Of a DNA stretch of 64,000 nt, positions 561-50,269 are shown one piece after another. Numbering within the stretch: position 1 is the stretch's first letter; each line of letters opens with the position of its first letter. Both the position numbers and the translations under genes were made by a program. The notes below the pieces were generated by a model. That model was not told the origin of the DNA. It searched no databases and worked only from the letters and a program-made list of their open reading frames with translations. The DNA comes from Mobula birostris (Eukaryota), in contig NC_092374.1 of the NCBI RefSeq assembly GCF_030028105.1, forward strand, positions 32,621,016 through 32,685,015, given 5' to 3'.

Positions 561-848
561 TGTGGCGACCCACTTTCTGGCACATAGGAACCGGCTCACA
601 ACAGCGCGCGCAGGCAGAGGGCCGGCCCCGAAAAGGGCGCCAGACCATCTTCACCAGCAGGGGGAAAATCCCGCGCGCGGGAAGGGCCTGGGAATTACAT
701 TCCCCACAGCAATCCCGCCCAGGGAGGGCGGGAACGGGAAGGCTTTAAAGCGGGCCGCGAAGTTTGAATAAATCTCTTTCATCGCAACTCTAACTCACCG
801 ACTCCGTCCGTGTGGTTATTCTAGCGCTGTGTGTAGCACATCGCTACA
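561..848 (+). repeat. 5' LTR
   Basis: 288 bp, TG...CA ends, contains AATAAA; direct repeat of 2775-3060 (about 14 substitutions and 3 indels by manual count). Confidence 0.95.
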
Positions 849-1550
849 ATTGGTGACCCCGACGGCCCAAACGATATTTGGACCAGAGATGACCGACGCT
901 GCAACTGTTCACGCAGGTTCGTTAAAACTGCCAAGCTTCTGGATGCTGCGACCCCAATTATGGTTCGGACAAGCAGAAGCACAATTCCACATTCGGCAGA
1001 TAACCTCGGAGTCCACTCGCTACTACTACGTGCTGAGCTCACTCGACCAGGAGACTGCTGCACAAGTTGAGGAGTTTATACAGTCGCCCCCGGAGGATGG
1101 CAAATACACAGCATTCAAAGCCCTGCTCATAAGGACTTTCGGACTCTCACGGCGTGAACGAGCACGCCGCTTAATGCACCTGGATGGTTTGGAAGACAGG
1201 CCGCCGTCAGCATTAATGAACGAGATGCTGGCCCTGGCTGAAGGACACAAACCCTGCCTCATGTTTCAGCAGGCGTTCCTAGAGCAACTGCCCGAGGACA
1301 TAAGCCTGCTGCTGTCCGACGCAGATTTCAGCAACCAGGAAAGAGAGAGTGGCATCCGTCGCACAGATCACCAAGCCGCGTGCCCAACGACAGACCAGAC
1401 CAGGCCCGGCAGCAGAGCCTACAAAACCCGGCGACGGGAGTGAGGAGCCCAACGAACAATGGTGTTTCTACCACCAGCGTGGGGCACAGAGGTCCGCCGC
1501 TGCAGACCACCCTGCAAATTCCCGGGAAACGCCAGGGCCAGCCACTGCTG
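829..1550 (+). pseudogene. Gypsy gag, frameshifted near 1335; C-terminal Zn-knuckle-like segment in another frame
   Basis: LKLPSFW...WFGQAEAQF...YYYVLSSLD is typical of this Gypsy clade's gag. WCFYHQR appears in the 1349 frame. Confidence 0.85.
851..864 (+). promoter_or_regulatory. Primer binding site complementary to the tRNA-Trp 3' end
   Basis: TGGTGACCCCGACG lies 2 nt after the 5' LTR and is the reverse complement of the vertebrate tRNA-Trp end ...CGTCGGGGTCACCA. Confidence 0.88.
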
Positions 1551-2424
1551 ATGGCTACAGCGGCTGGCCATCAGGACAGCCTCCTGTACGTCTGGGACAG
1601 GCAGTCGGGACGCCGCTTTTTGGTCGACACCGGAGCGGAGATCAGCGTCTTACCTCCAACGAGTTACGACACCCGCAACAGAGAACTGGGACCCACCCTG
1701 AGGGCCGCTAATGGCAGCACAATACGGACCTATGGCACTCGCACGGTGCGGCTACAGTTCAGCTCCAGCCGGTTCACGTGGGACTTCACACTGGCCGCCG
1801 TGGCCCAACCACTGCTGAGGGCAGATTTTCTACGAGCCCACAGCCTGCTGGTCGACCTGCAAGGGAAGCGATTAGTCCACGCCAAGACTTTTCAAACGTT
1901 CTCCCTGGGTGAAGCACAGTTGCCAGCCCCACACCTGGACTCCATCACGCTGTCCGACGATGAATTCACCAGGGTCCTGGCGGATTTCCCATCAGTACTG
2001 ACACCGCAGTTCACGGCAGCCATGCCCAGACACGGAGTACAGCACCACATCCCCACCCAAGGACCACCCCTCCACGCCCGTGCTCGAAGGCTTCCCCCGG
2101 ACAAGCTCCGACTGGCGAAGGAGGAGTTCAAGAAGATGGAGGAATTAGGGATCATACGACGGTCCGACAGCCCATGGGCCTCCCCCCTTCACATGGTGCC
2201 CAAGGCAACGGGGGGCTGGAGACCATGCGGTGACTACCGCAGACTGAACGAGGCTACAACGCCAGACCGCTACCCTGTGCCGCACATTCAAGACTTCGCA
2301 GCAAACCTACATGGCGCAAGGATCTTTTCCAAGGTAGACCTCGTCCGGGGATACCATCAAATCCCTGTACCTCCGGACAACATCCCCAAAACAGCACTTA
2401 TCACTCCATTCAGACTTTTCGAAT
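1551..2424 (+). pseudogene. Gypsy pol: aspartic protease and N-terminal half of RT, truncated after TPFRLFE
   Basis: [63 protein letters not shown]; no YxDD motif and no RNase H. Confidence 0.9.
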
Positions 2425-2450
2425 TAAACGGTGGTAAAAATTCACCATAT

Positions 2451-2760
2451 CCACTTCACAGCACGGACAGAGCCCGACCTGCGTACCCAAAGACCTGCAG
2501 AACCGTAAGTTTCTTTTTGTACGACGGGGCGGACACCGGGCACCGCTACAGCGGCCCTACGAGGGGCCGTTTAAGGTGACCAGGAACAACGGGTTCACGT
2601 TCGTGCTGGACATTGGGGGGAGAGAGGAGGTATTCATGGTGGACCGACTCAAACCGGCCCATGTGGACTTGGCACAGCCGGTCCAGGCGCAGGGGCAGAC
2701 CTCCCAAACAGAGGCCGATCCAGACTGTGGACATTGGGGGAGGTATCGCCGGTTCTGGCG
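2451..2760 (+). pseudogene. Gypsy integrase C-terminal (GPY/F) fragment
   Basis: ..[40 protein letters not shown], followed by the G-rich PPT at 2760-2771. Confidence 0.85.
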
Positions 2761-2774
2761 GGGGGGGGGGGTTA

Positions 2775-3060
2775 TGTGGCGACCCACTTTCTGGCGCACA
2801 CGAACCGGCTCACAACAGCGCACGCAGGCAGAGGGCCGGCCCCGAAAAGGGAGCCAGGCCATCTTCACCAGCAGGGGGAAAATCCCGTGCGCAGAAAGGG
2901 TCTGGGAATATACATTCCCCACAGCAGTCCCGCCCCAGGGAGGGCGGGAACGGGAAGGCTTTAAAACGGGCCGCGAAGTTTGAATAAATCTCTTTCATCG
3001 CAACTCTAACTCACCGACTTCGTGTGGTTATTCTAGCGCTGTGTGTAACACATCGCTACA
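2775..3060 (+). repeat. 3' LTR
   Basis: 286-bp copy of 561-848, preceded by a polypurine tract and followed by the TSD CTTG. Confidence 0.95.
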
Positions 3061-3335
3061 CTTGTTTATTTATTATTTGAGTTCTCTATCTAGTTTTAGG
3101 ACTTGCGTGAGATCACAGTGGGTCATATTTATGCGAAAATCGAATTCTGCACCGTTCGCAAACTGTCAGACGAACTGGTAGAGGCAGCTACAATTACACC
3201 ATTTGAAAGGCATTCGGACGGATTCCGGGATAAGAAGAGTTTTGATAGATGTGGGCCAAATGCTCGCTTCAGAAAGCGGCTTGGGCGAGTTGGGCCGGAG
3301 CGCCTGATTCCATCCTGGATCACTGTTTTACGCTT

Positions 3336-3378
3336 GTGCTAGGCAACTCCCAATTAAATCCCAACGCTACTTAGCAAC
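3336..3378. promoter_or_regulatory. Two RFX X-box-like motifs upstream of the CARD gene
   Basis: GTGCTAGGCAAC (3336-3347) and GCTACTTAGCAAC (3366-3378) resemble GTTGCCTAGCAAC; about 200 bp upstream of the ATG. Confidence 0.4.
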
Positions 3379-3570
3379 CTAATGAAACACATGCCGAAAT
3401 TTGAGCTTACCTTTGATAAATGTTGGAAATCCGGTTCACTTGATTGAAACGTTTGTAAATTGCGTTTCCTCGGATGGACTTCCAGACCTTTAGATTTAGG
3501 ATTAAACACGGCTGAGGACATGGTATCAGGACTTCACTAAACGCCAAGTATCGACAGTAATCTGCAAGCG

Positions 3571-3631
3571 ATGTCTCGACCGTTCGGCAATCGGAAGAAG
3601 AAGGTGACATTTGGGGAGCAACTAACTTACC
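3571..3631 (+). CDS. CARD-CC gene exon 1 (MSRPFGNRKKKVTFGEQLTY)
   Basis: ATG in gcgATG context; donor C|gtgagt; phase 1 matches exon 2. Confidence 0.7.
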
Positions 3632-6600
3632 GTGAGTTACTACACATCTAATGCTGGCGTGGATACAGGTGATGGGACTGTTTGTTTCCCAGTGCACTTT
3701 TCTTTTAACTCTAGTAGCGCGCTGAATTTTCTTTTAAGATCTGATGGCAATGACAAAATTCGTACCCCCTCCCCCCACCCAATTGCAGTATTTTACAATC
3801 CTCAAATCCATCAACAGGTCAGACCACGGCAGAAAGCGCTCATCGCCATCGCAGTGTGATTCGGTCTCACTTCGTTTTCCTTCTCAAAGAGCTGAAGTTA
3901 TCTTCTCCCTTTTACCGGGCTTTGAAGGAGAAGGATGTCTTAACCACCGAGCAAGTGGGACAGATTGAGGTAAGGTTGTATTGCATTTTATTTGTTCCGT
4001 TGAACTTTGCATCCTTTGAGTCGCGAACAGTTCTCGGCCAATAGACAAGCAGACGCCGCTCTACAGATTATCCTCAATTTCCTGTACAGGTGTACATCCT
4101 CATTGACTCTGCAGGGAACCCCAGGTCCTAGCAAATGCACCCCCTTGTTTTACATCTGTTATTCTCTGTAGCTTAACAATATTTCCTGCTTGCAAATAAT
4201 TTTCATGACCTCGTTGCTTTGTTTTTATTTTACACTGTATTTTGTGACAAATAATCGTTCAGTTAAAAAAATGTTGCAAGTACAGTACTGAGCTCGGTTA
4301 TTTTACAGCAACGATTACCGGGGCGATAGTAAAGTAAGAACGGGTTGGATTCTGATGTGAGCTCTAGCTCTATAACAGCCCGCAATCATAAGTTATTCTG
4401 GGTACATTGAAATAAGGAAACTCATCTCCTTGAACTGGCAGCTTTTCGGAATCTTCTACAAATAAGATCCATCACCGATAATGCATAATTAGTTTATGAA
4501 ATCTTCTCCCCATTCCTAATAGAACATCATTAAAAAAAAATGAACTCTATTGTATTGGAAACAGAAAGTGCTGAAAATAGACATAATTTGTAGCCAGTTA
4601 ATGTTTGAAACCTAACTGAACGGATATGACTCAGAGGTAATATTATTTTCTAACCCCTTTACATATGGTGGCGGTCCCTGACATATTTCGGGGAAAATAT
4701 CAATGTTATTTGAAGTTATAACCCTCTCACTAGATAAGTACATGAATAAGACCTCAACCAATATCAGAAAGGAGAACTTTTTTTTACACAAATTCTCACA
4801 CTAGTGACAGGTGCTATCATTTTAGCAACCTTAGATGTCCAGTTAGAAACTGTGGACTGAATATTATGAAGTTAGTTTGGGAGGATAAATGTTTCTCCAG
4901 AATGGCAACAAATGGGCACAATAGTACAGGATTTTTTATTTTTAGGGGGATATGGGCATCACTGGAAGAACCAGCATTTATTGCCCTGGAGAAGGTGGTG
5001 CTGAGCTGCTGCCTCGAAGCACTGCAGTCCTTCGGGTGAAAATGCTCCCATAGTGCTGATGGACAGGTGTCCAAGATTCATACCCTATAATGATGAAGGA
5101 TCAATAACATTTCAAAATCAGGGTGGTGTGAGGCTTGGAGGGGAATCTGCAGGTGGCGGTTTTAACTTCTGCCTGGTTGTCTTAATAGTAGAGATCATGG
5201 ATTGGGAGTTGCTACTGGGGGAGCACATGCTGTAGATATTAATGCCTCAGTTGTGGAAATGAACATCTAGGTGGTGAACGGGGTGCCAATTGAGGAAGTT
5301 GCTCTGTCCTGGGTGACATCAAGTGACTGGGATTTTGTTGGAGCCACAATTATCTGGCTAAGTGGAGAGTATGTAATCATTCTCATAATTGTGCCTTAAG
5401 GAGTGTGGGAAGGCTTTGTGGTGTTAGGAGGTGAGTCAGTCACCTCAGGATATTCAGTCTCCGACCCACTCTTGTAGCTGCTGTTGTAAGTGTCTGTTTA
5501 GTTGAACTTCAGGATCTGTTGCTGGGGCAATTATAATGACACTGAATTGAAAGGGAATAGGTTGTGACTCTCTTTTTGGAGATGGTCATTGCTCAACCCT
5601 ACCTTAAAGTTCATTCAGTCCTGTTGTAGGCAGGGAGGCTTTGTCTACTGAGGAATTGGCAATGGAAATGAATGTGGTACAATCCTCAGGAATTATCATA
5701 CTTATGTCACACTATAGCCCTAATAATGGAAGGAAGATAATTGATTAACTAGTTGAATATACTCTTGAATGGTTCTGGGACTGAGGTGGATGATTTCCCA
5801 AAGCCATTTTCATTTGTGTGACGCATGGTCTAACCATTACAACATATTTTGCCCTGTAGCCCATTGACTTCAGCATTAACAAGCTCCTCGATGCAAATGC
5901 TGCTTTGATTGTGCAGGGCAGTTACTCTCTTCTGTAGAATTTAGTTCGCAAGTTCATGTTGGAACCAATGCTATGGTAAGATCTGGAGCGAGATGAACTG
6001 GGTGAAACATGACTTGGATATCAGTAATTAGGTTTTTCATGCTGCTAGATTCTAAAGCTATAATTTGTACCCTAAAGCTTCTCTTAATTGGGAATGAGAT
6101 GCCAATTTTTCAGGTCTTCATAGCTTTGGAGCTTTTTTGCTCCTCTGAGATCATTGATTTGCAATTATGAAGCAGCAAAATTCAAGTGATTAGCTGCAAG
6201 AAAAGACTTGGGACAGACAACTGTTGTCATTCATTCTGTATTTCCTTACATCAGAAGTTATTGTGTAATGTACAACTGGAAATATAATAAACATGGCTTT
6301 AAAGTAAAACTTAAGAAGTCAAACAAATTAAAACTGTTAATTGGTGCTCTGTGCAGTTAGAGAGCTTGCCAGAACTGAAGGTGGCCAAACTTCTCGAGAT
6401 TGTTAGAAATGCTGATAGCCACGTGTTCAAGTCATTTTGTGGTGTTCTTGGTGAGATGGGATACTGGTACCTAGCGCAGACTCTTCGAACAGCCACTGAA
6501 GAAAAAGAATGGACGTCTTCTACAGGTAAAGGACAAAATGAAGTGAAATGGATTCTTCAAATTTTGGTGTGACTAAAATTCAAAAATATTTTGTCCTAAT

Positions 6601-9600
6601 AATCTTTTAAGTCTTATTGCTTTCCTAAACAGAATATGCCTTGCACCAGTGAATTTTAACTTACAATTATTTTGGGTATGTTTTATTTTGGGTATGTTTT
6701 ATTTTTATAAATCCTTTTTACTGTTTTTCAGAATAAGATCAACAATATAACTAACTGTAAAAATTCTTCTTTCTACCCACTGCACCACTTAATCTGTTTT
6801 TGTTATTTTGGATAAGTTTTTCAATGCCAGTGGATAATTAAAATCAAGTTGTCAAGATTCAACACACCCACATAGTTAAAGTTAAGATTTTTTAAATACT
6901 TAAAATCACACACTCTTCATGTCTTTCTAAATAAAGTTCAAGGAGTTAGCCTACTTTTGAACAACTAAAATATTACACCTAACTCCTTTCTTATGTGCCT
7001 GTACTCTCAACATTTTTTGTTTTCATTTTGTACAGGAAGTTAATTGAAGTTTACAAACCATTAGCACCTCCACAATTGTTTCTGTAAATATAAAATGGCA
7101 GACTTGCACAAAATGGCAGACTTCCACTAGCTTCAGACTTTGAGTTAAGCAGCTCCTCTGCTTGCCTGAACTTCTCTCCTTGTTTTGCTCTGTTTTTAAG
7201 TTTTTTTAAATTTGTAAGCTACATCACCTATCCAACAGTCTATTAATTTTTTGTCTGTGTGGAATCAAGGTGGCTCCAGGTCAACACAGCCAACACTGGG
7301 AGACTGGAAATCAGCGAAGCTCCATCATCCAATCCTTGAGCCAGGTAGGTTATCCAAAGCTTTAGAAAATTATATTGTTGGACTCAACAGTGAACCTTGA
7401 GACTGTAAGTCTCGTGGGAGTAGGATCTGCCTGAAGGTGAGGTTGGAACTACTTTTCCTTAAGTGTTGGGTTAGGGTCAGTGAGACAAACTCCTGAGAGA
7501 TTAGTTCTGCCCGAGTGACAGCTGGCTATATTACATCATAGGTAGTGTCCAACAGTCTCATCTTAGAATGGAGGAAGGTGCTATGTTTTAGACTAAAAAG
7601 CTATTATTACAATTCTCATGAAGGGGACATGGCATATAACCTTGAAAGAATACTAACTAGAATGTTAAACCTGATCTTTTCCATTTTATACCAGGAAAAA
7701 GTAATCAATACATTAGGAATAGAAATTATATTGGTCAGCAATGTAAATAGTGAGATTGCATCTGTAGTGGTTTAAACAATCAGAAGAGTAAAAAATAATA
7801 TGCTTTTACATTTAATGTCTGATTTTTAAATAGGCCTATATACAAGGACACCCCAAGTTATGAATGACCTGACTTACAGAAATACAAATTCTGCAAATTC
7901 TCATAGATTTTTCAAGCTAGTAATAATAATGATAAAATATTCTACCTTAATTCATCAATGACAGGATATGGTATATATTCCATTTGTTTAACTGAGTAGT
8001 ATAGCAAGTGTAATTAATAACAATATGGGTTCCCATGGAAAACTAATCTTCCTAATTTACAGAAAAATGGCTTGTGGACAATTCTCGGGAATGAAACCCA
8101 TATGTGTTCTGGGGACTGTATTGGATTTGTGCCTACGTTTCTAGATTTGAAATTTCTATGTTATAAAATTATAAACTTCTGATGCTCCTTTTGTATGATA
8201 ATTAACAACGAAATAAATCAGAATCTGAAGCATATAATTTTATGAAAGTTTATGATACAATGGGGGGATGTTTGGCCCTAGCCCTATCAGGCAATGGCAT
8301 CAATTTCACTCCTACTTATAATTCTCTGTAATCGACTCTTTGTCCAACAATTCCCATTCAGTTCTCCTGCTACCACCTGCATGAGGGATAATGTATAGAA
8401 GTTAACTAACTTATCAGTCTGCTTGTGGGATGTGGGAGGAGACGAGGGAGAAATCCAGGCAGCTATAGGGAGAATGCTGAGGGGAAAAATGTTAACTGAT
8501 TTTATTTACACTATTTCTCCACAACTATTTGCACATGAGTTTGCTGACTTTGTATTAAATACTTCATTTTACCTTGTAGGATGTATGTCTATATACCATA
8601 AGCAGCACCTGAAAGAAAACTTTCTGCTTTCCAAAGAAGCCAATAAAAATCTAAAAGAAGACAACCTGGAGTTGGGTCAAAAGGTGGGACTTATGAGGGA
8701 AGAATATTTACAAAGGTAAATCAAAAATAAGTTATTTTCAAAATATCAAAGTAAAGGACTTAACAATAGGATACACAAGTGATAGGACTAATGATGGGGC
8801 AGTTGGTATACAAGAAATGTAGTGAGATTGTGAGGAAGAACAGGCAGTTGATAGGGAAAAGTTGCAGTTAGTGGGATGAGTTGAAGTGTAACATGGCACA
8901 AACTCAAAGGGTGAGAATACAGGACTACAAATGTTATATCTGAATGCACGCCATATACACAATAGGATAGATTATCTTGCAGCACAGTTAGAGATTTGCA
9001 GGTATGATATTGTGGGCATCAATGAGACATGGCTAAAAAATCATAGTTAGGCATTTAACATCCAAGGACACACCTTGTATTGAACAGACAGGCAGGTAGG
9101 CGGGACGTGGGTGTGGCTCTGTTGGTAATAACAAGTAAATCAAATCCTTAGAAAGAGGTGACATAGGATCGGAAGATTCCAACCTTGCAGGTAGAGTTAA
9201 GAAACTGCAAGGGTAAAACAACTCTAATGGGAATTGTATACAGAACCCCAAACAGTAGCCAGAATGAAGGATATAAATTTCAACATGAAATAGAAAAGGC
9301 ATGTAATAAGGGCAATGTTATGACTGTCATGGGGGATTTCAATATGCAGGTAGATAAGGAAAATTAGGTTGGTGCTGGATACCAAAAGAAGGAATTTGTA
9401 TAATTCCTACAAGATTTTTTTTTTTTTTTTTAACTGCTTGTGTTTGACCCCACTAGGGGAATGGCAATTCTGGATTGGGTATTGTGTAATGAACCAGATT
9501 TGATTAGGGAGTTTAAGGTAAAGGGACTCTTAGGAGACAGTGATAATAATATGATAGAATTGACCCCGCAGTTTGAGAGGGAGAAGATAAAGTCAGATAT

Positions 9601-11794
9601 ATTGATATTACAGTGAAGTCAAGGGCTTTAGAGGCATGAGAGAGGATACAGTATAGCCAAACTGATTGGCAGGAATGATAGCTGAACAGCAATGACTGGA
9701 GTTTCTGGGGGTAATTCAGAAAGCACAGATAGATACTATATGTCCCAAGGATGAAGTATTCTAAAGGGGCAATGAGGCAACTGTGGCTAACAAGGAAAGT
9801 CAAAGACAACATAAAAGGAAAAGAGGGCATATAATATAGCAAAAACTAGTGGGAAGTTAGAGGATTGGGAAGCTTTAAAATCCAACAGAAAGCAACCAAA
9901 AGACTATAAGGAGAGAAAAAGTAAAATATGAAGGTAAATGGCCAAAAAACACTAAAGAGGATAACTAAAGTTTTTTCAGATAGACTGTATACGTAAAAGA
10001 AACATGAACGGATATTAAACTGCTGGAAAATGATGCTGGAGTTGTAGTAATAGTGGACAAAGAAATGGCAGACTGACTTAATAAATATTTTGTGTCAGTC
10101 TTCACTGTGGAAGACACTAGCAGAATGCCAGAAATTCTAGAGAGTCAGGAGGCAAAAGTGACTGTAATTGCTATTACTAAGGAGAAGGTACTTGGGAATC
10201 TGAAAGGTCTGAAGGTAGGTAAGTCACATGGACCAGATGGACTACACTCCAGATTTCTGAAGGGGGTAACTGAAGAGATTGTGGAGGCATTAGTAATGAT
10301 CTTTCAAGAATCACTAGGTTCTGGTATGGTTCTGGAGGACTGGAAATTTGCAAATGTCACTCCATTCTTTAAGAAGGGAGGGTGGAAAAAAGAAAACTAT
10401 AGGCCAGTTGGCCTGACCTCAGTGGTTGGGAAGATGTTGGAATCCAGTATTAAGGATGAGGTTTCAGGATACTTGGAGGCACATGATAAAATGGGTGAAA
10501 TACAGTATGATTTCCTTAAGGAAAAATCTTGCCTGACAAATCTGTTGGAATTCTTTGAGGAAATAACAGGCGGGATAGACAAAGAAGAGTCAGTGGATAT
10601 TGTTTACTTGGATCTTCAGAAGGCTTTTGACAGGATGCTGCACGGGAGACTGCTTAACAAGATAAGAACCTATGGTGGTACAGGGAAGATACTATCATGG
10701 ACAGAAGATTGGCTGACTGGCAGGAGGCAAGGAGTTGGAACAAAGGAGGCCTGTTCTGGTTGACTGCTGAGGACAAGTGATATTCTGCAGGGGTCGGTAT
10801 TGGAACCACTTTTCGTTTTGTGCTGTATGTCAACGACTTGGATCTTGGAATTGATGGCTTTGTGGCCATGTTTGCAGATGACACAAAGATCTGTGGAAGG
10901 GCAGGTAGCTTTGAGGAAGCAGGGAGTCTGCAGAAGGACTTGGACATATTGGGAGAATAGGCTAGGAAGTAGCAGATGGAATATAGTGCAGAAAAATGTA
11001 TAGCCATGCACTTTGGTAGAAGGAATAAAGGTATAGAGTATTTTCTAAATGGGGAAAAAATTCAAAACACAGATGCAAAGGAGTGGGAGTCCTTTTGCAG
11101 GATTCCCTAAAAGATAACTTGCAGGTTGAACCAGTAGTAAGGAAGAAAAATGCAATGTTAGCATTCATTTCGAGAGGTCTAGAATACAAGAGTAAGGATG
11201 TGATGCTGAGGCTTTATAATGCTTGGTCAGACTGCACTTGGAGTATTGTAAGCAGCTTTGGGCCCTTTATTTAAGAAAAGATGTGTTGCCGTTGGGTCCA
11301 GGGGAGAGTGATTCTGAAAATGGAAGGGTTAAGACTGAGGAGCATTTGATGACTCTGGACCTGTACTCAGTGGAGTTTAGAAGAATGAGAGGGGTCCCAT
11401 TGAAGCCTATTAAATATTGAAAGGCCTATACAGTGGATGTGGAGAGCATGTTTCCTATAGTGGGTGAGTATAGGACCAGAAGGCACAGTCTCAATAGAGG
11501 GTCATCCATTTTGAACAGAGATGAGAAGGAATTTCTTTAGCCAGTGGCTGGTGAATCTGTGGAATTAATTGCTCCAGACAATTGTGGAGGCCAAGGCAAT
11601 GAGTATATTTAAAGCAGAGGTTGAAAGGCTCTTGGTTAGTTGAGGTGTCAAAGGCAGGAGAATGGGGTTGAGAAGGGTGATAAATCAGCATGATGGAATG
11701 GCAGAGCAGACCCAATGGTCAGATTAGTGTAATTCTGCTCCTATATCTAATGGTCTAAGTTTAACGACACGAGCTAGAAGGTACAAGCAGATAG

Positions 11795-11877
<83 letters not shown>

Positions 11878-14800
11878 GCTGGGGGAACTCAGCAGGTCAG
11901 GCAGCATCTATGGAGAGGAATAATGATTCACCGCTTGAATGGATGCTACCTGAAATCCTCCAGATTTTCACTACAGTATCTGCAGATTCTTTTATATTTA
12001 TGAAGCAGATGGAGTAAATGTGGGAAAATAAGGCAATTCAAAGTGATAATGAAAACAGAAGAAATATTTTAAAGATAAAGCTAGTAAAAGGCTGTGGTGG
12101 AGAGGATCTTGTCATGCTGGTCATGAGACAGGAAGTAAATATGTTGCTATCTCATGCAACTAGGAAGGCAAATTGTATGTTAATCTTCATTGTAGGTAGA
12201 ATAGGAACACTAATGTACAGTAATCTTGCTGAGATTGTACATTCTCTAAGATCTCTTTGGAAGAACTGCATGTAATTTTTATTACTGCATTCAAAGAAAG
12301 ATTTACACGCCTTGAAAACAGTGCAGCTTCAGTTAATCAGACCCAAGATGGAGCTACCTAATGAAGAAAGATTCAAGTTGACCCGCACTCACTGAAGAAA
12401 GTCACTGACATTGTGAATGGCAGACCAGTCTGTAAACACCATTTTACTGACTCCTATTTCTGTTTCTTGGGTCCTTAGAAATGCACCATGCTATACTGCA
12501 TTTCCACATTCAATGTTATTCTTCCCAGTTTCCAACAATGGTGAATTTGTATTGCAGTGCTAAATGCAGCAGCAAATTGAAAATGGAAGACCATAATCCA
12601 GATATACAGTACTTCCCAGTTTTGGAGCAACAGCAAGAGATTTACAAACATTAGTCGTAATTATAAGAGCATAGAAATAGGTCATTTGGCCTAACATGGG
12701 CATGCCACTATTTATGCCTTGTAATTTTATATATTTCTATTAGGTCATCCCCGGTCTCCTTCACTGAAGGGAGAACAAGACCAGCCGATCTAAAATTCTC
12801 CATGACTGAGCCCTCCAGTTCTGCTGAACCTCTTCTGCACTCTTTCTAGTTTGTCAAATCTTTTCTACGGTGCGGCGATCAGAACTGCGCACAATACACC
12901 AAGTGCAGCCTAACCAGTGTTTTGTAGAAATGCAATGTAGTTTCATAACCCTTGTGTTCTTTGCCCTATCCTGCGAAGGCAGGCATGTCTTATGCCTTCA
13001 TTGACCTCTCGACCATTATTGCCACTGTCAGGGAAATGTGGACTTGGACCTGCAGGTCTTTCATCAAATGGTAGCATACTACCATTTATTGTATGTGTCC
13101 CATCATAATTTGACTATTTAATATGCATTACCTCATGCTTGATGGGATTAAATGCCATCTGTCAATACTCTATAAACTTTTCATCAGATCTGTATGCTGC
13201 TACAGCCTTAGACTACCTTCCTCACTCTCCCTAACACCACTTAGATCGCTGTATGCCAGGACAAATAGGTGCAAGAACAGTTTCTTTCCGTGTGCCATCA
13301 GTCTTATGAACACTTGAATTTTAGTCTATTATAAACCAAGTCCACCTGTACATACACAGGTATACCTCATTGTATATAGTTCACGATTATTTGCACTATT
13401 GTTTTGTTTGCTTTTTGATTCTGTACAGCGAGAGCTCAGGGAAACCGGCATCAAATTCCCTGTATGTGTCCACATACTTGGCGATAATAAAGGATTCTGA
13501 TTCTAATGTCAATTTAAAATTGTTCCCTATGAAGCCCAGGATGTCGTGCATCTGTTTTGTTTAATTAGGCAATGTGTCTATGATGAAGGGTCCACCTAAT
13601 AAATTCTTAAAATTGGATTGCAATTCTGTGTTTTTCAGAGGTCCTACTTTCTATGGTTTCATGATGTTCTGGTTAATTCAGGTGTTTTCCTAACTGATCC
13701 AACGTGTAGCCCTGGGAAATGTCTCTGCCAACCATGCTGCAAAATTAAACCAATTCACACATGGCCTATATCCCTCCATTCTCTGCCTGTCTAAATATCC
13801 CTTAGACATTGCTATCATATCTGCTTCCCTCACTTCCCTTGGCAGTGCATTCTGGACACTAATCACCCAGTGTTTAGAAATAAATCTTGCCTTGCAAGTC
13901 TTTAAACATTTCCCCCTCTCACCTGGCTGGAGTTCTGTGACCATTCAGCCCATTGACTCTGCAGTGCCATTCTATTATGGCTAATTTATTATCTCTCTCA
14001 GTCCTATTCTCCTACCTTCTCTCCATAACCTTCGATGCCCTTGCTAATCAAGAAACTACCAACTTTTGCCATAATGACTTGGCTGTCATAGCTGTCTATG
14101 GCAATGAATTCCACAGATTCACTACGTTCTGGCTAAAGAAGCTCCTTCTTATCTCTGTGCTAAAGGGAAATCTTTGTATCCTGAGGCTGAGTCCCCTGAT
14201 TCTAGAGCACCCCCTCCCCCCCCCCGCCCCCCACTATTGGAAACATTCTCTCACTGTCCTCTCTATGAGGTCTTTCAATAAGAACCCCCTTATTCTTCTA
14301 AATTCCAGTGAATACAGGCCTAGAGCCATCAAACGATCTTCATACAATTGATGCTGGGACCTCTGCATGTGATATATACAGCATCTGACTTGATTGAAAA
14401 TGTAGATCAGTGGGTTAGTAACTTTAAAACAAAGATTGCTGGAGTTGTAGACAGTGTAGAAGGCTGTCAAAGGGTACTGCAGAATATGGGCAGAGAAATG
14501 GCAGATATAGTTTAATCTGAGCAAGTGTGAGGTGTTGCACTTTGGGAGGTGTAGTTAACAATAGTACCCTTAGCAACTTTGTACAGGGGGATCTTGGAGT
14601 TCCAGTCCATAACTCGCTGAATGTGGCCACGTAGGTAGATGGGATGGTAAAAAAGACATATGGCCTGCTTTCTTTGCCACTTTCATTGGTCAAAACTTTG
14701 AGTATGATTCAGGAAGTCGTGTTGCAGCTACAAATGTATATAAAGCTTTGGTAAGGCCCACTTGTAGTATTGTGTGCAATTCTGGTCGCCCCATGCAGGA

Positions 14801-17044
14801 AGGATATTGGATGGTTTGGAAAAGTGGTGGTGTGGGGGGGGGGGGGGGGGGAAGGTTTATCAGGATGCTACCTGGATTAAAAGGTATGAGCTACACGGAC
14901 AGGTTGGACAAACTTTGGTTGTTTTCTCTGGAGTGTTGGAGACTGAAGGGAGTGTATGAAATTCTAAGGGGCATGGATAGGGTAGATAGTAGAATCTGTT
15001 TCCCACAGTAAACATGTAACAGGATATGTATTTAAGGTGAGAAGTTTAAAGGAGATGTGCAGGCAAGTATATGTATTTAAGGTGAGAAGTTTAAAGGAGA
15101 TGTGCGGGCAAGTTTATTACACAGAATAGTAAGTGCCTGGAATGGGCTGCCAGGGCTAGTGATGACAGCAGATACGATAGCAGCATTGAAGAGGCTGTTA
15201 GAAGCATGAATAGGCAGAAAATGGAGAGATTAGTATCCTGTACATGGCAGAAGAGGCATTGTGTTTGGTGCAGACATTGTGGGCCTGATTCAGTATTGTA
15301 CTAACCTATGTTCTATACTTCAAGTTCTCTTGTTCTGGCAACATCTTTGTGGATTATTTCTGCACCCTAACTTAACTATATCATTCCTATATTGTAATCA
15401 GGACTGCATACAATTTTCCAAGTGCAGTCCCACAAGTCTTTTACAGCTGGAATATGGTTCCATTATGATGACATTGAGTGTGAAGTTGTTATGGCACCAC
15501 TCACCAGGTGTTCTGTTTCACTCCTGTACACTGGCTCATCATCATTGTATTCAATGGAGGCAGATGTCATCTTTTCCAACTTGTCTGTCTATGTCACCAT
15601 TTTAAGGGAACTATGCACCTGTACTGTTAAATCTTTCTGTTGAAAAACATTCTCAGTCTGTCATTCACTGCATATCCTGACATCCTGACGACATACCAAA
15701 ACAAATCACTTCACACTTGTCTGAGTTAAACTCCACCTGCCACTCCTTTGCCTACTTTCCTACTTGATCGAAATCCTGTTGTAACCATAGACAATTTCCT
15801 TACTGTCCAATATGCCACCAGTTTTGGATATCCTCTACAAACTTATTAATCAGGCCACCTACTCATCCAACTCATTAATGTATGTAACAAATCACAGTGA
15901 CCTAGCATCAATTGCTGAAGTACAACTCTGAACAATCAACAGATGGCTCTCCACCATCTTCTGACTCTTTCCACCAAGCCAATTTTGTATCCAGTTAGCT
16001 AGCTCACCCAGTAATCTCACCTTTTGGAACAGTCTACCACGTCTGTCCTTCTCAAAAGCCTTACTACATTCCATATAGACAATGTCTACCATCCTGCCTT
16101 AGTCAATCCTCAAGGTTACTGACCTCTTTCAAAAAAAAAACATTTCTGAGACACAATTTCCCACAAACAAAATCATGCTGTTTATTCCTAATCACCATGG
16201 CAGAGTAGTGGTTACCACAACAGTTTACAGTACTAGCAATCCGGCTTCAATTCCTGCCGCTGGCTGCAAAGAGTTTTATGTTCTCTCCATGACTGTGTGG
16301 GTCTCCTCCAGGTGCTCTGGTTTTCTCCCACAGTCCAAAGGCATACTGGTTGGATATTAATTGGTCATTGTACATTACCCTGTGATTAGACTAGTTACAT
16401 TGGGGGTTATCCATGCTGTATCTCAATCACTAAATAAATAATCAGTCCTCCAAATGCTGTTTCTCAAAATCACCTTCAGTGACATTGGGGTCAACTTTCC
16501 TCACACCATTGATTCTGGTGTTATCTGCCTAATCACTAATCAGGCCACTTACTATCTAATTCCTTTTTGAAGGTCTTATTTCTTCTATCATTAATCTAGG
16601 CACATGAAATGAACTCTCAAATGAAGAAACTTTAAATAGGGAAGAAAGAATTAATAATATTGATATTGGTCTAACATTCTTCCCCTTCAATTACTTTTCT
16701 CTTTCACAATTAGCATGTTTAATACTGCATTTATATAATTATGTCAAGGCTATTTTTTTGTGACTATATTTAACAGATTGCAAGTACTTGAAGAAGAATT
16801 AGCTTCAGTGACTCGTGAAAGGGATATGAGTGTGAAGGAACGTAATATCACAATCCTGGAAATTCAAGAACTGCAAAATCTCAACCATGAACTTCAGGAG
16901 CTAATAATAAAGCTTGAAAATTCTAAGATTAATGCTGTACGTAAGTATCCTAAATATGGTGTTGAGATGGTCCCTGTACCGCCATTGACTGATGGGCAAA
17001 TAAGTCTGCTTACCTTCAATCAACATGGACAAATAATTGATTAA
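3571..17044 (+). CDS. Uncharacterised CARD + coiled-coil protein, 286 aa; join(3571..3631,3818..3969,6357..6525,7270..7344,8580..8715,16777..17044)
   Basis: All junctions are GT-AG and phase-compatible (1,0,1,1,2); total 861 nt, open. CARD: HRSVIRSHFVFLLKELKL...LKEKDVLTTEQVGQIE|LESLPELKVAKLLEIV...FKSFCGVLGEMGYWYLAQTL. Heptad-rich C-terminus. AATAAA at 17149. Confidence 0.82.
3818..3969 (+). CDS. CARD-CC gene exon 2 (CARD helices 1-3)
   Basis: Acceptor caacag|GT; donor GAG|gtaagg. Confidence 0.88.
4940..6040 (-). mobile_element. Old degenerate LINE fragment (CR1/L2 group)
   Basis: Decayed RT-like and tail-like sequence similar in character to 40020-41900; no intact ORF. Confidence 0.45.
6357..6525 (+). 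CDS. CARD-CC gene exon 3 (CARD helices 4-6)
   Basis: Acceptor gtgcag|TTA; donor ACAG|gtaaag; encodes KVAKLLEIV..FKSFCGVL..YLAQTL. Confidence 0.9.
7270..7344 (+). CDS. CARD-CC gene exon 4 (75-nt symmetric linker exon, skippable)
   Basis: aag|GT...CCAG|gtaggt, phase 1-1, open frame GSRSTQPTLGDWKSAKLHHPILEP. Confidence 0.6.
8580..8715 (+). CDS. CARD-CC gene exon 5 (start of coiled coil)
   Basis: ccttgtag|GA ... CAAAG|gtaaat; encodes KEANKNLKEDNLELGQKVGLMREEYLQ. Confidence 0.82.
8740..11757 (+). mobile_element. CR1-type LINE, most of ORF2 (APE + RT) with many stops and frameshifts, in CARD gene intron 5
   Basis: ..YLNAR.., MGDFN, GPDGLH, NYRPVGLTSVVGKMLES, KSCLTNLLEFFE, VYLDLQKAFD, FADDTK, VRLHLEYC; CR1 3' tail. 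Confidence 0.92.
11799..11875. repeat. (CA)n microsatellite, abutting a Penelope-derived short repeat
   Basis: Perfect AC dinucleotide run. Confidence 0.97.
12670..16180. mobile_element. Cluster of CR1 fragments in alternating orientation, plus a Rex/Babar-like 3' tail at ~13240-13505
   Basis: Repeated CR1 RT C-terminal motifs (QFWSPH, LFSLE.RL.G, VDIVYM..SKAF); Rex-like ARTNRCKNSFFPCAI followed by AATAAA and a GATTCT tail. Confidence 0.8.
16196..16440 (+). mobile_element. V-SINE-like tRNA-derived SINE, degenerate
   Basis: V-domain-like core GTGGGTCTCCTCCAGGTGCTCTGGTTTTCTCCCACAGTCCAAAG; AATAAA-rich tail. Confidence 0.7.
16777..17044 (+). CDS. CARD-CC gene exon 6 (coiled coil; terminal exon, or spliced at the internal donor 16940|gtaagt)
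   Basis: taacag|A is phase 2 and fits exon 5; encodes LQVLEEELASVTRERDMSVKERNITILEIQELQNLNHELQELIIKLE. Confidence 0.85.
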
Positions 17045-18158
17045 TATAATGTAATTGCATTGAATACTTTACTGTTGCACTGTTGCCTGAGCCTGTGACA
17101 CTAAATGAAGTACCAGTCAGCATGTTTAGAAGGAACATCTAACTGAAAAATAAACTGCTGCGTAAATCCTTAGAATTAATAACTACTTTTCATTCAAGTT
17201 GTGTGCTGTGGCCTGATTGTTTCACTTTGTGTTTGTACATCCAGAATTCTCATACAACCAAGGAAGATTAGACTGTTTTTATGAAAATTAGCTGATATAG
17301 TGTATTTTATTATACAAAATAAATCAAAAGATATTTTCAATTTAGCAACATTGTTACATAAGAGCAGTAAAATTGTAGCAGCAACATCTTTAAAGATTTG
17401 GCACTTCACGTGAAGAGTACAGCCATTGAGCTCTTCATTTTACATTTAGAACTGCAATGTAAAACATAATTCTTTAAAAGGACAAGGAAATGACATAAAT
17501 GGGTAATTTATTTGAATTCTCGTCACATGCCGGTGATAATAAATCTGATTCTGATACTAGTGTGCAAATATGAATATATTAGTCGAGTTCTTAGAACATT
17601 GTTCATGCAACTGGCATTTTCACATTCTCCAAGACTGGGACTATACTGCATTAAATGGATGAACATACTGTTTATTGCAGTACCCCTCTCTCTCTCTCTC
17701 CACCCCTCCCAACCTTCAAGGATCATCATTAAATAGTCAAAATGCATCAGTTATTTTTATAAAAGTCATTAGTATTATAAAAACAGAAAATGCCTAAACT
17801 ATTCAATGGATCAGACAGCATCTGCTTCAAGTTAAGGCTTTTTAAAAAAAAAAATTTCCAGTTCTTATGAAAATTCAAATGTATTAAGTTTCAGGGGTAG
17901 TGTTTCATGACCTGAAATGTAATTTTTGCTGCCCGCAAAAAATGTGTTGCTTGCCTTACTGTATTTGCAGCAACTTTTATTTTCCTTCAGATTTCCAACA
18001 ACTGCAGCTTTTGGTTAACAATGACCATTCCTACCTCTATTTGGCTTTGAAAGTCATGAAGCTATTCTTATCCCATTTATTAGATAGAGGTTTAATATAT
18101 TTACTTCATTTTATAGTTCCCTTTGTTTTCATTACCTTTTTAAATATGAAAATAAGTA

Positions 18159-21761: not shown

Positions 21762-22004
21762 TTAGCTGACATATGGCCTGGTGTAGATTGCCTTTAATGC
21801 AAGTAATAATTTAATAACTGGTGTGCACAATGCTGTAATTACAGGCAGGCTATAATATTGAAGGTAAAATGAGATATCGTGGACTTTTATTAACCCAAAT
21901 ATTTTCAAAATCCCCCGTTTTGTTGGAGGAAGGCATCGGAATCGCCAGTAGCTAACAATGTCATGGTAGCAGTGAAGATCATGCCCTGATACTGCTAGGT
22001 CGGC
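21762..22004 (-). CDS. 4-TM gene last coding exon (TM4)
   Basis: ttgcag|GCC; encodes ADLAVSG...YWRFRCLPP...FYLQYYSLPVITALCTPVIKLLLAL...YVS*. Confidence 0.88.
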   Translation of the reverse strand, partial: ADLAVSGHDLHCYHDIVSYWRFRCLPPTKRGILKIFGLIKVHDISFYLQYYSLPVITALCTPVIKLLLALKAIYTRPYVS

Positions 22005-25000
22005 CTGCAAATAGAAATAATTAATTTTCACCAAGTGCATAAATTAATTTTTCATTTTTGCAGAGAAATGCTTATGTTCATGAGGCTATTTATCCTTAAC
22101 TTTTATTAATGTTTAATTTACATATGTAACCAAATAAATTACTCCAAGGTTCTTAACAAGAGCATAACTAAAAAATATTTTTGTCAACAGACTACAGGGA
22201 GCAAAGCAGGATGGTTGAACTGAAGCCTGGTCTTAAGGATTGTTGTCAGGGAGGACAGAGTCAAGATGGAAGGACCATAGAGAGCTTGGAAGTTTAGGGC
22301 TAAAGCAACTAATAGAGCTATATGAACACTAATAGTAAAACAAGATGGGACACAAAAAGTTAACCAGTAGAACTTTGCACTGTGAAGTCCAAGGGAAATA
22401 AGGCAGTGGACAAAATTTTCGATAGCAGATAAACTGAGATGGGCAAATGCAGGCAACATTAGAGGTAGAAATAGGCAGTTGTGGTGATTCATTAATTGGA
22501 AAATTTATCTCTGGTGCAAACAAATCAACTTACAAATGCAAACACAAGGAAATCTACAGCTGCTGGAATTTCAAGCAACACACATAAAAATTGCTGGTGA
22601 ACGCAGTAGGCCAGGCAGCATCTAGAGGAAGAGGTAAATCGATGTTTCGGGCCGAGACCCTTACAAATGCTTTGGCTTTGTTATGCAGTTGCCAGGTTTG
22701 GAAATACAAGCTAAGGAACTTGGAAATACAAGTTAACATTGGTTAAATTCCAGTACCATGATTTATGATTTGTAAATCATAAGACCATTTACCATCTACA
22801 TATCCATCTAAAAGGAAATTAAAGTCTGGTATTAGAACAGAAGGCAAATTCCAGTATTTAAGTTACAAGAAATACAGTAAAACATCAAAACTATTTACAA
22901 CTACCCTGTATATCAATGCATCCACATTCCACTTTATATACCAACAGTGACTAGTTGAGAGATCATTCTGATTAGAAGATTTGGCCCGACATACTGTACA
23001 ATCATTTAACAAATGCTCAACAAAATAGTGCAGTGAAAGTTGTCCTCTATAAACCTATATAAATTTACTTCACACTTTGATGGATTATGTTTGTGTGTGA
23101 ATAATGAACTGCTTTTGGCAATCAGCATTATTTACTCTGTAGGCATCGTGGTGTAGATTAGAAACAAATTTATTTAGACCTAAAAATACTGAGAAGACAT
23201 AATCTAGACATAGGAGTGCATTTAGTGATCTTGCTGCTGGAAGTTTATACTCTCTCTCTCAGCCACTCATCTTGGCAGCAGTATGCTGCCATTATTAAGA
23301 AGCACAGACACCACAAAATCTCAATAGGAGGTTACAATCAGTTTCTCAGCACAACTGGCACTGAAACACTCGTCTTTTTAAAAATAAAAAAGTGGATATG
23401 TTTACGTTGGAATGTGGACCAAAGTATAGCTGAAGCATTGATGAGGGGAAGTCAGTGCAGAGCCCTTTTGCAAAATACAGTGGACTCTAGTTAAATGAGC
23501 CATTGGTTAATCAGGGCAGCAACTTATTTGGGACAACTATTAAAGAACAAGTAGTAATCAAAATAGCCAGGATTCCCTTTGTTTATTTGGGACACAATGT
23601 CGCTAATTGGGACAGGAGACTGTTGCCAAATAGTTTCTAACCAGTGTCAGTTGTGTGTAGCTGGTAGACAATATACCGTGCTTAGAGGGAACGGTTTATA
23701 AATAGTATCAGCTGCTCATGTTCGTGTTCAAAAAGCAGTGATTTCTGTCAGTGATAGTTAGTGAGAAATAAGCAGTAAGACAATTCAGAACTATTTTGCT
23801 CACTGCCTTTTCAAGCATTCAGGCTTGGAGATGGATATAAATGGCACAGAGTGAAAATGAAACAACTTCACTGCTTCAAGTTAGGAACAATGAAGAATTT
23901 GAAGATAGACAATCATCTTGAATCTTACAATGAAAATGAAGATTTGGAGGATGCAATAATCAAAAGCATATGAAGGCAGTCCATTATCTGGATGCCTGCG
24001 CCAATTTGTTCATTTACAGTCAAAAGAACACAGCAGCGTACACTGGAGGAATTACTGTCGGAAACTATTAGTTCCTAAAACTATAGTACTGTATTATCAG
24101 TAGTGTTCTAATTGGCTCTATATTTCATGAAATATGTAATTTTTACTCAGTATGTCTTTTGTCTTTTCTGTATCTTTTTAACTATTTTTATGAAACTTTG
24201 GCTAGTTGGGGCAGTAGCTTAAAGGGATCAAAATGTACTGGACCCAATGTGTCCCAATTAACTGGAATCCACTATAAATTCACCTAGACCAAAAGGTTTT
24301 AGCAAGATTGGAGACAGGGTAAAAGAACAATTGGTTAGTACCAAACTTAGTGGACAGAAGCCATGCCATGGATTGTGGTCACATGACATTAGAAACAGTT
24401 ATGTAAACCTTGCTGTGCTGCTCAATTGCCATTACAGCACAAACTGAAAATGCTGGAGTATTTGAGATGTTACAGAATTAACAATGATTGTAAGTCTCTG
24501 CCATAATATTTATATTTAAGAAATTCATCTAATTCTATTGAAATTATGATGCAATAGAACAAAATTAGAACTAAAGAACCAGGAGTGAGAATGCACATTA
24601 ATTCATTTGATATGGTCGCTTTTTATGGGACCTTCTCATGGCCCTTTAGACAAAGGTGGTGGGCGCTATCATACAAAGCTGAATTTCTAATTTTAAACAT
24701 AGTTCTTTTGCATCGAGTTGAACTGGTATTACATTTTATTTTACACACTGTGTGGGCCTTTATGTGTCCATATCTTTCTCTAAATGAAATATCTTTTCTT
24801 TAAATAAAAATCAATATTACTCATTCTCATCAACTATCACAGCCTTATAGCATCAACACTCACCTTCTTGCTCTGGCAGCTCTTTTATTAAATTTAATTT
24901 ACTGCACATTCTAAAGTGATAAGGCTTTTCAACAATATACTGAATCCGAAAGCATCAGAAGAATTGCTGGGTACACTGATTACTCATATTTAAGCATTCC

Positions 25001-49455: not shown

Positions 49456-50269
49456 ACTGGACCATATCCATTTTTTGATAGGATTTATCCAAAGAAGGGC
49501 CTTAAAACACATCTGTAGAAGTTTGTCTAAGTTTGTTCTAATTGTGCCTTTTCTTGAAAAAAAAACTGCATACTGTAATTTATGTTTAATTGTGAATGCT
49601 GCATATCTGATGCTATGTGCCTGTGATGCTGCAGCAAGTACATTTTTCACCTGTACTCACAAACAATAAACTCAACTTTGAAACAGTACTGATACAGATT
49701 TTAAATCTGAGACATTGACTTAGATCCCACAGATATTGCTCAATCTACTAAATTCCTCTAGCAGGTGGTCTAAGTCTCCAAATTCCAACATTTGCCGTCC
49801 CTCATGTATCTATCTGTATCTCCAAGGCTCTCTGTTCAATCTAGGGTCCCACCATTTATTCTGCAAGTCCTGCCCCAGCTTATCTCACCAAAATACAGTA
49901 CTCACATTTAGCCAAGTTAAATTCCAATCTGTCAGTCTTTTATACATCTCTCCAGTTCATCTCCATGGTCACCAAAAACATTAACATAAATGACAAACAA
50001 GAGTGGACCCAGCATCGAAACCTACAACACACCGCTTTTCACAGAATAACAGCCTCCCACTAATACTTACAGACTCCTACCAAGTCAGATTTAAATCCGG
50101 TTGGTAATCAGATCCCATGCGATCTAACCTTTTTTACCATACATGGTGGACCAGAAGCACTTGTACGCAGTAAACAAATTGGATCGCACGCTCACAGAAA
50201 TGGTAACTGTGCACTGAGAGTTTAGTTCCCTTTCCCAAGCTTCCCTCTGGTTTATTATGCTCCGGATCA

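What the first reader, a model, noticed from the sequence alone, without database searches (positions are those of the whole stretch)
3571..17044. Unrecognised CARD + coiled-coil adaptor gene
Seen: a clean 6-exon, 286-aa ORF. Established: the CARD pattern (H..VIR.H.V.L..EL; L.EKDVLT; LL.I; F..FC..L...G..YLA..L) is closer to caspase-2/RAIDD-type CARDs than to CARD9/10/11, yet it is followed by a coiled coil (RERDMSVKERN) as in CARD-CC scaffolds and the DLG5 N-terminus, with no caspase, death, PDZ or NACHT domain. I cannot match it to a named human gene. Inference: a lineage-restricted death-fold adaptor or decoy.
Basis: partly seen in the sequence, partly recalled or inferred. Interest (0 to 1): 0.7.

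Follow-up and report, generated by a model that had tools for sequence, protein, structure and literature searches.

The report
Phosphatase-docking CARD protein of jawed vertebrates
This is a real, spliced ray gene of an unnamed family found from chimaeras to frogs, whose protein joins a death-fold CARD domain and a predicted coiled coil to a strictly conserved motif that likely docks protein phosphatase 1, so it likely steers that phosphatase to a still unknown target.

Summary
The 6-exon, 286-aa gene is real. Contigs from 3 of 5 public runs (one study) are spliced across all five introns. Orthologues, all 'uncharacterized' or hypothetical, occur in chimaera, sharks, rays, coelacanth, lungfish, bichirs, sturgeons, gar, bowfin and amphibians. 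None was seen in amniotes, though this is not proven. The CARD is confirmed (Pfam, AlphaFold, fold search: best Apaf-1/caspase-9) and followed by a 76-residue predicted coiled coil. A complex model placed it in the PP1 groove (0.84, best control 0.02; plant PP1 stand-in; possibly from memory). Eel orthologues lost the CARD but kept the coiled coil, and 2 of 4 kept the motif. The CARD lacks all five Apaf-1/caspase-9 interface residues and the CARD9/11 intron, which argues against a plain decoy or CARD9-like scaffold. Best reading: a PP1-targeting subunit with a private CARD. Target unknown. No paper found.

The parts
2990..3570 (+). 5' untranslated part covered by a spliced contig (true start unknown)
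   Evidence: X3 contig of 1508 nt begins at 2990 and is unbroken to 3631; in-frame stop 11 codons upstream of the ATG; contigs cannot show a start
3571..3631 (+). Coding exon 1 (residues 1-20), basic N-terminus, low model confidence
   Evidence: pLDDT < 50 for residues 1-26 of the orthologue model
3595..3612 (+). KKKVTF (residues 9-14): RVxF-type PP1-docking motif with Thr at the x position
   Evidence: K10, V12, T13, F14 invariant in 21 of 21 rows of A8; weak Pfam PP1_bind hit E 0.09, below cut-off; complex model 0.84 against best control 0.02
3632..3668 (+). Alternative extension of exon 1 (donor at 3668); gives a stop after codon 26
   Evidence: joint in runs X2 and X4; translation
3818..3969 (+). 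Exon 2 (residues 21-71): CARD helices 1-3; phase-0 intron follows helix 3
6357..6525 (+). Exon 3 (residues 72-127): CARD helices 4-6
   Evidence: Pfam CARD E 0.0057 on the exon alone, below cut-off; whole orthologues above cut-off in 8 of 10
7270..7344 (+). Exon 4 (25 codons): linker; the matching stretch is present in sharks and rays but absent from the chimaera and bony-vertebrate proteins and from some annotated isoforms
   Evidence: spliced in 3 of 3 runs; alignments
8580..8715 (+). Exon 5 (residues 153-198): end of linker, start of predicted coiled coil
16777..17044 (+). Exon 6 coding part (residues 198-286): coiled coil to about residue 246, then a low-confidence beta-rich tail; stop
   Evidence: helix 171-246 at pLDDT 87-96; heptad hydrophobicity 0.65 and 0.47 at two of seven positions; contigs
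17045..17172 (+). 3' UTR with AATAAA at 17149
   Evidence: contigs end at 17110-17172

Best explanation
The gene likely encodes a targeting subunit of protein phosphatase 1 (PP1): its conserved N-terminal KKVTF is predicted to bind the RVxF groove of PP1, its coiled coil would dimerise it, and its CARD would place the phosphatase on a partner through a family-specific surface rather than the standard apoptosome surface. Shown here: the gene and its splicing, the family's range, the conservation island, Pfam CARD hits in orthologues, and the loss of the five canonical interface residues. Predicted: CARD fold, coiled coil, PP1 docking (about 0.8). Inferred: dimer formation; release of PP1 when Thr13 is phosphorylated, as reported for RV[S/T]F motifs; and CARD-mediated targeting (about 0.5). 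The family has Glu at the caspase-9 R52 position and Arg at the Apaf-1 D27 position, a double charge swap that would fit self-association or binding to its own paralogue (speculative). The substrate is unknown; initiator caspases with PP1-sensitive inhibitory sites are one candidate (about 0.2).
For: Motif in 21 of 22 full-length orthologues from chimaera to Xenopus; the exception, P0027, is a model with a different N-terminus. Column identity is 0.94 against 0.40 and 0.35 in the flanks and 0.71 in the CARD (21 rows, P0027 dropped first). The conserved letters are V, T and F, which a basic localisation signal would not need. The same four letters KVTF of RRP1B bind the PP1 RVxF pocket in a crystal structure, and x-position phosphorylation blocks binding (PMC9813921, passages read). 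Complex model: 0.84 in three runs, best of 3 controls 0.02; runs share at least 47% of contacts; partner pLDDT at least 46. The mark was reached by 51 of 78 solved and 2 of 108 mismatched microbial pairs, and by 71 of 105 solved and 2 of 126 unrelated eukaryotic pairs. The best contacts join residues 12-14 to the C-terminal strand of PP1, the known RVxF groove (groove residues recalled). Four eel-group proteins keep the coiled coil but have no CARD (0 of 2 scanned hit Pfam CARD; all four read by eye), and 2 of 4 keep the motif. CARD fold. Interface residues R13, R52, R56, D27, E40 (PMC6365033, passage read) are kept by the ray's CASP9-like and APAF1-like CARDs but read F, E, A, R, V here.
Against: No binding experiment exists. 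The complex used a plant PP1 (195 of 233 residues identical to a vertebrate PP1 core) and the stingray orthologue's first 34 residues. Peptides and disordered chains are untested in the tool's calibration, and many RVxF complexes are solved, so the pass may be from memory. A loose RVxF arises in 2.8% of random 30-mers, so the case rests on conservation. The ray paralogue and four amphioxus relatives have CARD plus coiled coil without the motif, so the ancestral job did not need it. Two of three runs show an exon-1 splice that stops after codon 26. Dimerisation, tissue, localisation and substrate were not tested.
Confidence: 0.6

Rival explanations
1. CARD decoy or adaptor for the apoptosome or PIDDosome: the CARD binds caspase-9, caspase-2 or Apaf-1 directly and blocks or aids activation; the N-terminal motif is incidental or a nuclear signal.
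For: Best fold matches are Apaf-1 and caspase-9 CARD entries. Best profile score among the 26 ray CARDs tested is the CASP9-like one. The phase-0 intron after helix 3 is at the same codon as in the ray's CASP9-like gene.
Against: Only 18-19% identity to those CARDs, the same as to the CARD9-like one (20%). None of the five interface residues is kept and two are charge-reversed. The CARD is lost in eels while the gene is kept. The motif is better conserved than the CARD.
Confidence: 0.13
2. PP1 inhibitor or sink: the protein binds PP1 through the motif but acts by sequestering it (in a CARD or coiled-coil polymer, or as the 26-residue product of the alternative splice), not by delivering it to a substrate.
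For: Same motif evidence. Eel forms consist of motif, Pro-rich linker and coiled coil only. The alternative donor at 3668 leaves just the motif.
Against: The CARD is conserved at 0.71 column identity across chimaera, sharks, coelacanth and amphibians, more than a spacer needs. No inhibitory phospho-motif was identified. The short splice form is an ordinary candidate for decay (inference).
Confidence: 0.2
3. A CARD9/10/11/14-like CARD-coiled-coil scaffold that nucleates BCL10 filaments for NF-kB signalling.
For: Same domain order. The language-model search returned CARD9-named clusters at 0.85-0.86, below the 0.9 level and with fewer than 170 shared features, so a lead only.
Against: Profile scores of 4.6 and 2.2 bits; different intron position and phase; helix-1 Arg missing; the tree puts the family with its paralogue and amphioxus proteins (97/94), apart from CARD9/11. 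The ray has its own CARD9-like and CARD11-like genes.
Confidence: 0.04

Closest known systems
RVxF-type PP1 regulatory subunits (RRP1B, RepoMan/Ki-67, KNL1; ASPP proteins as regulators with folded domains)
   Same: Basic residues followed by V-T-F in a low-confidence (likely disordered) segment; identical KVTF in RRP1B (PMC9813921, passages); weak hit to the Pfam PP1_bind model; model docks it on PP1.
   Different: None that I recall carries a CARD; three full-text searches for CARD with RVxF or PP1-binding found 0 papers. No SILK-type or other second motif was identified.
[quoted passage not shown]
   Same: Best fold matches (Z 15.3, rmsd 1.4 A, 92 aligned); intron at the same codon as in the ray CASP9-like gene, two codons from the APAF1-like one.
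   Different: 19% identity; no protease or NB-ARC domain; all five interface residues replaced.
CARD-coiled-coil scaffolds CARD9/10/11/14 (and DLG5 N-terminus)
   Same: CARD followed by linker and coiled coil.
   Different: Much shorter coil; no PDZ/SH3/GUK; different intron; separate clade; helix-1 Arg absent. DLG5 was not compared directly; no Takusan or PDZ Pfam hit.
PEA-15 (death-effector-domain protein that binds ERK)
   Same: Works-like analogy: a small death-fold protein used to position a signalling enzyme rather than to start cell death (PMC11874512, passage read).
   Different: Different death-fold class, kinase rather than phosphatase, no coiled coil; no homology claimed.
Unnamed CARD-coiled-coil proteins of rays (paralogue) and amphioxus
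   Same: One clade with the family (97/94). The ray paralogue shares the intron after helix 3 and exon borders after the CARD and in the coil.
   Different: No RVxF motif (KTSF or KKSF at the matching place in the paralogue); 32-36% CARD identity.

Membership tests
CARD domain (death-fold superfamily) | Pfam PF00619 above curated cut-off | tested here: met
   8 of 10 chondrichthyan orthologues and 5 of 8 bony-vertebrate orthologues; the window's own exon 3 alone scores below cut-off; the spliced window protein itself was not scanned
CARD domain (death-fold superfamily) | Six-helix bundle superposable on solved CARDs | tested here: met
   AlphaFold model of the Pristis orthologue (86% identical), helices 30-125 at pLDDT 84-92; Foldseek Apaf-1 CARD E 6e-5, rmsd 1.4; VIA Z 15.3
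RVxF-type PP1 regulatory subunits | Conserved [RK]-x(0,1)-[VI]-x-[FW] motif in a disordered segment | tested here: met
   21 of 22 full-length orthologues; pLDDT < 50 for residues 1-26; consensus pattern recalled
RVxF-type PP1 regulatory subunits | Motif docks in the PP1 RVxF groove (model) | tested here: met
   0.84 against best control 0.02; plant PP1 stand-in; may be from memory; supports, does not show
RVxF-type PP1 regulatory subunits | Measured, motif-dependent binding to PP1 and effect on substrate or place | not testable with these tools
   needs pull-down or calorimetry
CARD9/10/11/14 CARD-CC scaffolds | CARD orthology (sequence, tree) | tested here: not met
   2-5 bits against the family profile; separate clade
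CARD9/10/11/14 CARD-CC scaffolds | Phase-1 intron before helix 4 and helix-1 Arg, as in the ray's CARD9-like and CARD11-like genes | tested here: not met
CARD9/10/11/14 CARD-CC scaffolds | BCL10 nucleation | not testable with these tools
   needs experiment
Apoptosome CARDs (caspase-9, Apaf-1) and their decoys | Type I interface residues R13/R52/R56 or D27/E40 | tested here: not met
   F39, E77, A81, R54, V67 in the window protein; R13 column is Arg in 5 of 5 named ray CARDs and in 0 of 9 family rows (residues from PMC6365033)
Caspase-2 / RAIDD CARDs | Orthology or shared intron with CASP2 | tested here: inconclusive
   CASP2 not found among scored candidates; the RAIDD-like CARD lies in one exon and scores 15 bits
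DLG5 / MAGUK | PDZ, SH3, GUK domains after the coil | tested here: not met
   transcript and orthologues end after exon 6; no such Pfam hit

The most novel reading that the evidence does not exclude
An undescribed PP1 holoenzyme subunit built on a death fold: an old chordate CARD-coiled-coil gene gained an RVxF motif in early jawed vertebrates, uses a charge-swapped private CARD surface to assemble or to reach a CARD-bearing substrate, is switched off by phosphorylation of the motif, lost its CARD in eels, and was lost from the CCNB1-CENPH interval in mammals, while staying testable in Xenopus eggs.
Probability: 0.45. Interest if true: 0.68.

Novelty: new variant of a known kind. Interest (0 to 1): 0.52.

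Why it matters
CARDs are known as assembly modules of death and immune signalling, and PP1 gets its specificity from docking subunits. I found no paper that joins the two in one protein. PP1 removes inhibitory phosphates from caspase-2 in oocytes and in mitosis (PMC7785872, passages read), so a CARD-bearing PP1 subunit is a concrete candidate link between phosphatase and death-fold signalling in non-amniote vertebrates. Xenopus laevis has two copies, so it can be tested in egg extract. The family is already in databases as uncharacterized, and it may turn out to be a modest, tissue-specific regulator.

Tried and rejected
Longer gene through the donor at 16941: rejected (contigs read through; orthologues end alike). 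PDB sequence search with the shark alignment: 0 hits at E 0.01. With the wider alignment, the only hit under E 0.001 was a designed protein, and RAIDD scored E 0.09. Atlas feature search gave CARD9-named clusters below 0.9, a lead only; for the neighbouring minus-strand gene it gave nothing useful. CASP2 not located. No run is on record as RNA, so tissue and level are unknown; X1 and X5 gave no spliced piece among the rows listed. Absence in amniotes is not shown: the HMMER library holds one protein per 50% cluster and could hide one. Of the 20 hits at E <= 1e-10, 18 carry a species name (none an amniote or non-eel teleost) and 2 are unnamed multi-domain proteins; only 28 of the 105 new hits were looked up. 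The word-based search was incomplete, as it missed lungfish, bichir and gar. Synteny of orthologues in other species could not be checked. Weak Pfam hits on the coil (Cep57_CLD_2, DUF2247, Tox-HDC and others, all below cut-off) were treated as coiled-coil noise. The C-terminal tail was not folded alone. Paper searches: 0 papers; six gene ids, 0 papers; 24 papers, 15 listed, none about this family by title or abstract start; supplements were not searched and may list these ids. Earlier findings of the scan: none.

Full report
1. The observation. Six exons with GT..AG ends give 861 nt, 286 aa. Five public runs hold part of the stretch and were laid on it. Three runs of one study hold contigs with no mismatch that skip the introns: ex2-3, ex3-4 and ex4-5 joints in 3 of 3, and ex5-6 in 3 of 3 by loose end and continuing record. 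The ORF's ex1-2 joint is in 1 of 3, in a single 1508-nt contig that covers all six exons. The other two use a donor at 3668 that stops the frame after codon 26. The runs are only guessed to be RNA and may share a source with the genome, but spliced joints cannot come from the DNA. A tempting donor at 16941 is read through.

2. The family. Exon 3 finds 15 proteins from 10 cartilaginous fishes including the chimaera Callorhinchus. The window protein is 86-88% identical to the sawfish and stingray proteins, so the window is likely from a ray. A profile adds coelacanth, paddlefish, sturgeons, basking shark, Xenopus laevis (two genes), Pleurodeles and bowfin (25 hits). A full HMMER scan gave 112 hits at E <= 0.001 and 20 at E <= 1e-10. 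Look-ups name lungfish, bichirs, gar, two more frogs, four eel-group fishes, a ray paralogue and amphioxus proteins. All are uncharacterized, hypothetical or auto-named. No amniote or non-eel teleost is among the 18 named of the top 20; the limits of that absence are given under Tried and rejected. The gene is single-copy by the searches of this genome, with one paralogue on contig C18.

3. The CARD. Pfam CARD passes the cut-off in 8 of 10 chondrichthyan and 5 of 8 bony-vertebrate orthologues. AlphaFold of the sawfish protein gives six helices at 30-125 (pLDDT 84-92 by blocks), a low-confidence linker, one helix at 171-246 (87-96) and a weak beta-rich tail; pTM is 0.36, so the domains' relative position is unknown. 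Fold searches rank Apaf-1 and caspase-9 CARD entries first (Foldseek E 6e-5, rmsd 1.4; VIA Z 15.3), CARD9 at 11.5 and RAIDD at 9.6. I took 26 CARDs from the same genome (gene names by recalled resemblance). The family profile scores the paralogue 81 bits, four amphioxus proteins 50-70, CASP9-like 25, APAF1-like 20, RAIDD-like 15, CARD9-like 4.6 and CARD11-like 2.2. A tree of 30 rows (13 of the 26 ray CARDs, 11 family members, 6 relatives) groups family, paralogue and amphioxus at 97/94 and leaves deeper ties open. The phase-0 intron after helix 3 sits at the same codon as in the CASP9-like gene and the paralogue, two codons from the APAF1-like one. CARD9/11-like genes have a later phase-1 intron, and the RAIDD-like CARD has none. 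The Apaf-1/caspase-9 interface uses R13, R52, R56, D27 and E40 (PMC6365033, passages). The ray's own CASP9-like and APAF1-like CARDs keep them. This protein has F39, E77, A81, R54 and V67 there, and the R13 column is Arg in 0 of 9 family rows against 5 of 5 named CARDs. So it is a CARD, but not one built for the standard apoptosome contact.

4. The missed feature. Residues 9-14 read KKKVTF. Exon 1 alone hits Pfam PP1_bind weakly (E 0.09). The motif is present in 21 of 22 full-length orthologues; the exception is a frog model with another N-terminus. In the 21-row alignment K10, V12, T13 and F14 are invariant. Column identity is 0.94 against 0.40 before and 0.35 after, 0.71 for the CARD and 0.59 for the coil. 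Four partial or alternative-start records also lack it, as do the paralogue and four amphioxus proteins. In four eel-group proteins the CARD is absent, mostly replaced by Pro-rich sequence, the coil is kept, and two keep the motif (KKVAF, KRVTF). In the literature, KVTF of RRP1B binds the PP1 RVxF pocket, and phosphorylation of the x residue blocks binding (PMC9813921, passages).

5. Complex model. Residues 1-34 of the stingray orthologue (motif and the six following residues identical to the window's) were folded with a plant PP1 catalytic domain, the cleanest full-length one in hand (195 of 233 identical to a vertebrate core). The score was 0.84 in three runs against a best control of 0.02, with contact agreement of at least 47% and partner pLDDT of at least 46. 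The mark was reached by 51 of 78 solved and 2 of 108 mismatched microbial pairs, and by 71 of 105 solved and 2 of 126 unrelated eukaryotic pairs. The lowest-error contacts join V12, T13 and F14 to the last beta strand of PP1, the RVxF groove as I recall it. Peptides are outside the calibration and such complexes are well represented in the PDB, so this shows likeness, not binding.

6. Surroundings. Flanks of 120 kb upstream and 80 kb downstream show, in order: a zinc-transporter gene (SLC30A5-like, recalled), two tandem cyclin genes (Pfam Cyclin_N and Cyclin_C), an LTR retroelement, this gene, an unidentified minus-strand gene, a probable CENPH (recalled), a KGD4/MRPS36 exon (Pfam E 0.012, below cut-off) and a CDK7-like kinase. 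A human gene list for this region runs SLC30A5, CCNB1, CENPH, MRPS36, CDK7 with nothing between CCNB1 and CENPH (PMC10137185, table row read). That list is not complete (it omits RAD17), but it agrees with my recall that humans have no gene there. The paralogue lies about 30 kb from POLG-like exons (recalled), which would fit an origin in the vertebrate genome duplications (inference). The cell-cycle neighbourhood is not taken as evidence of function.

7. Mechanism. Most likely the protein is a PP1-targeting subunit: the motif docks PP1 (predicted), the coil dimerises (inferred), and the CARD supplies place or partner through a private surface (inferred). Thr13 would switch binding off when phosphorylated (inferred). 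The double charge swap at R54 and E77 would fit self-association (speculative). Caspase-2 is dephosphorylated by PP1 in oocytes and mitosis (PMC7785872, passages), which makes initiator caspases a candidate, but the interface residues argue against direct standard binding. Rivals are a PP1 sink (0.2), an apoptosome decoy (0.13) and a CARD9-like scaffold (0.04).

8. Novelty and score. The parts are known; the combination and the family appear undescribed. Searches joining CARD with RVxF or PP1-binding gave 0 papers, six gene ids gave 0, and one search listed nothing relevant (listing only). The library lacks most subscription journals, and supplements were not searched. Verdict: real gene, new variant of a known kind, interest 0.52.

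Noticed in passing
window 561-3060: LTR retroelement directly upstream (LTRs 561-848 and 2775-3060, 270 of 290 columns identical; gag-like, protease and partial RT hits; apparently internally deleted). The spliced X3 contig begins at 2990, inside the 3' LTR just after an AATAAA and about 30 nt after a TATA-like box, so the LTR may supply a start site; contigs cannot show this.
   Followed up: partly
window 3632-3668: Alternative donor used in 2 of 3 runs; leaves a 26-residue product holding only the PP1 motif, or a decay target.
   Followed up: partly
window 50336 to about 21980, minus strand (exons about 46760-46983, 42123-42199, 39050-39152, last near 21980-22005): Unidentified small gene, tail to tail with this one, starting at the CpG island 50200-50800; basic, with several S/T-P sites; no Pfam hit on two exons and no useful Atlas hit.
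   Followed up: partly
window 50700-57300 and L016:1867-1929, plus strand: Probable CENPH, sharing the CpG island head to head with the unidentified gene (recalled resemblance and position; no Pfam hit on two exons).
   Followed up: partly
L006 and L004 (G000:C6 about 32.59-32.62 Mb): Two tandem cyclin B-like genes just upstream of the window.
   Followed up: partly
G000:C18:14652000-14665500: Paralogue with CARD and coiled coil, shared exon borders, and a degenerate motif (KKSF); near POLG-like exons.
   Followed up: partly
P0035/P0138, P0036, P0046, P0069: Eel-group orthologues lack the CARD; the Anguilla one is auto-named 'YLP motif-containing protein 1-like', probably a misname.
   Followed up: partly
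P0044, P0072, P0078, P0080: Mollusc and annelid proteins with a related N-terminal CARD-like part and long coiled coil, auto-named as CENP-E-like or myosin-like or unnamed; the family may reach back to early bilaterians.
   Followed up: no
window 17020-17030: The window protein is one residue shorter than the sawfish and stingray proteins near its C-terminus (two Leu instead of three).
   Followed up: no
   Followed up: partly
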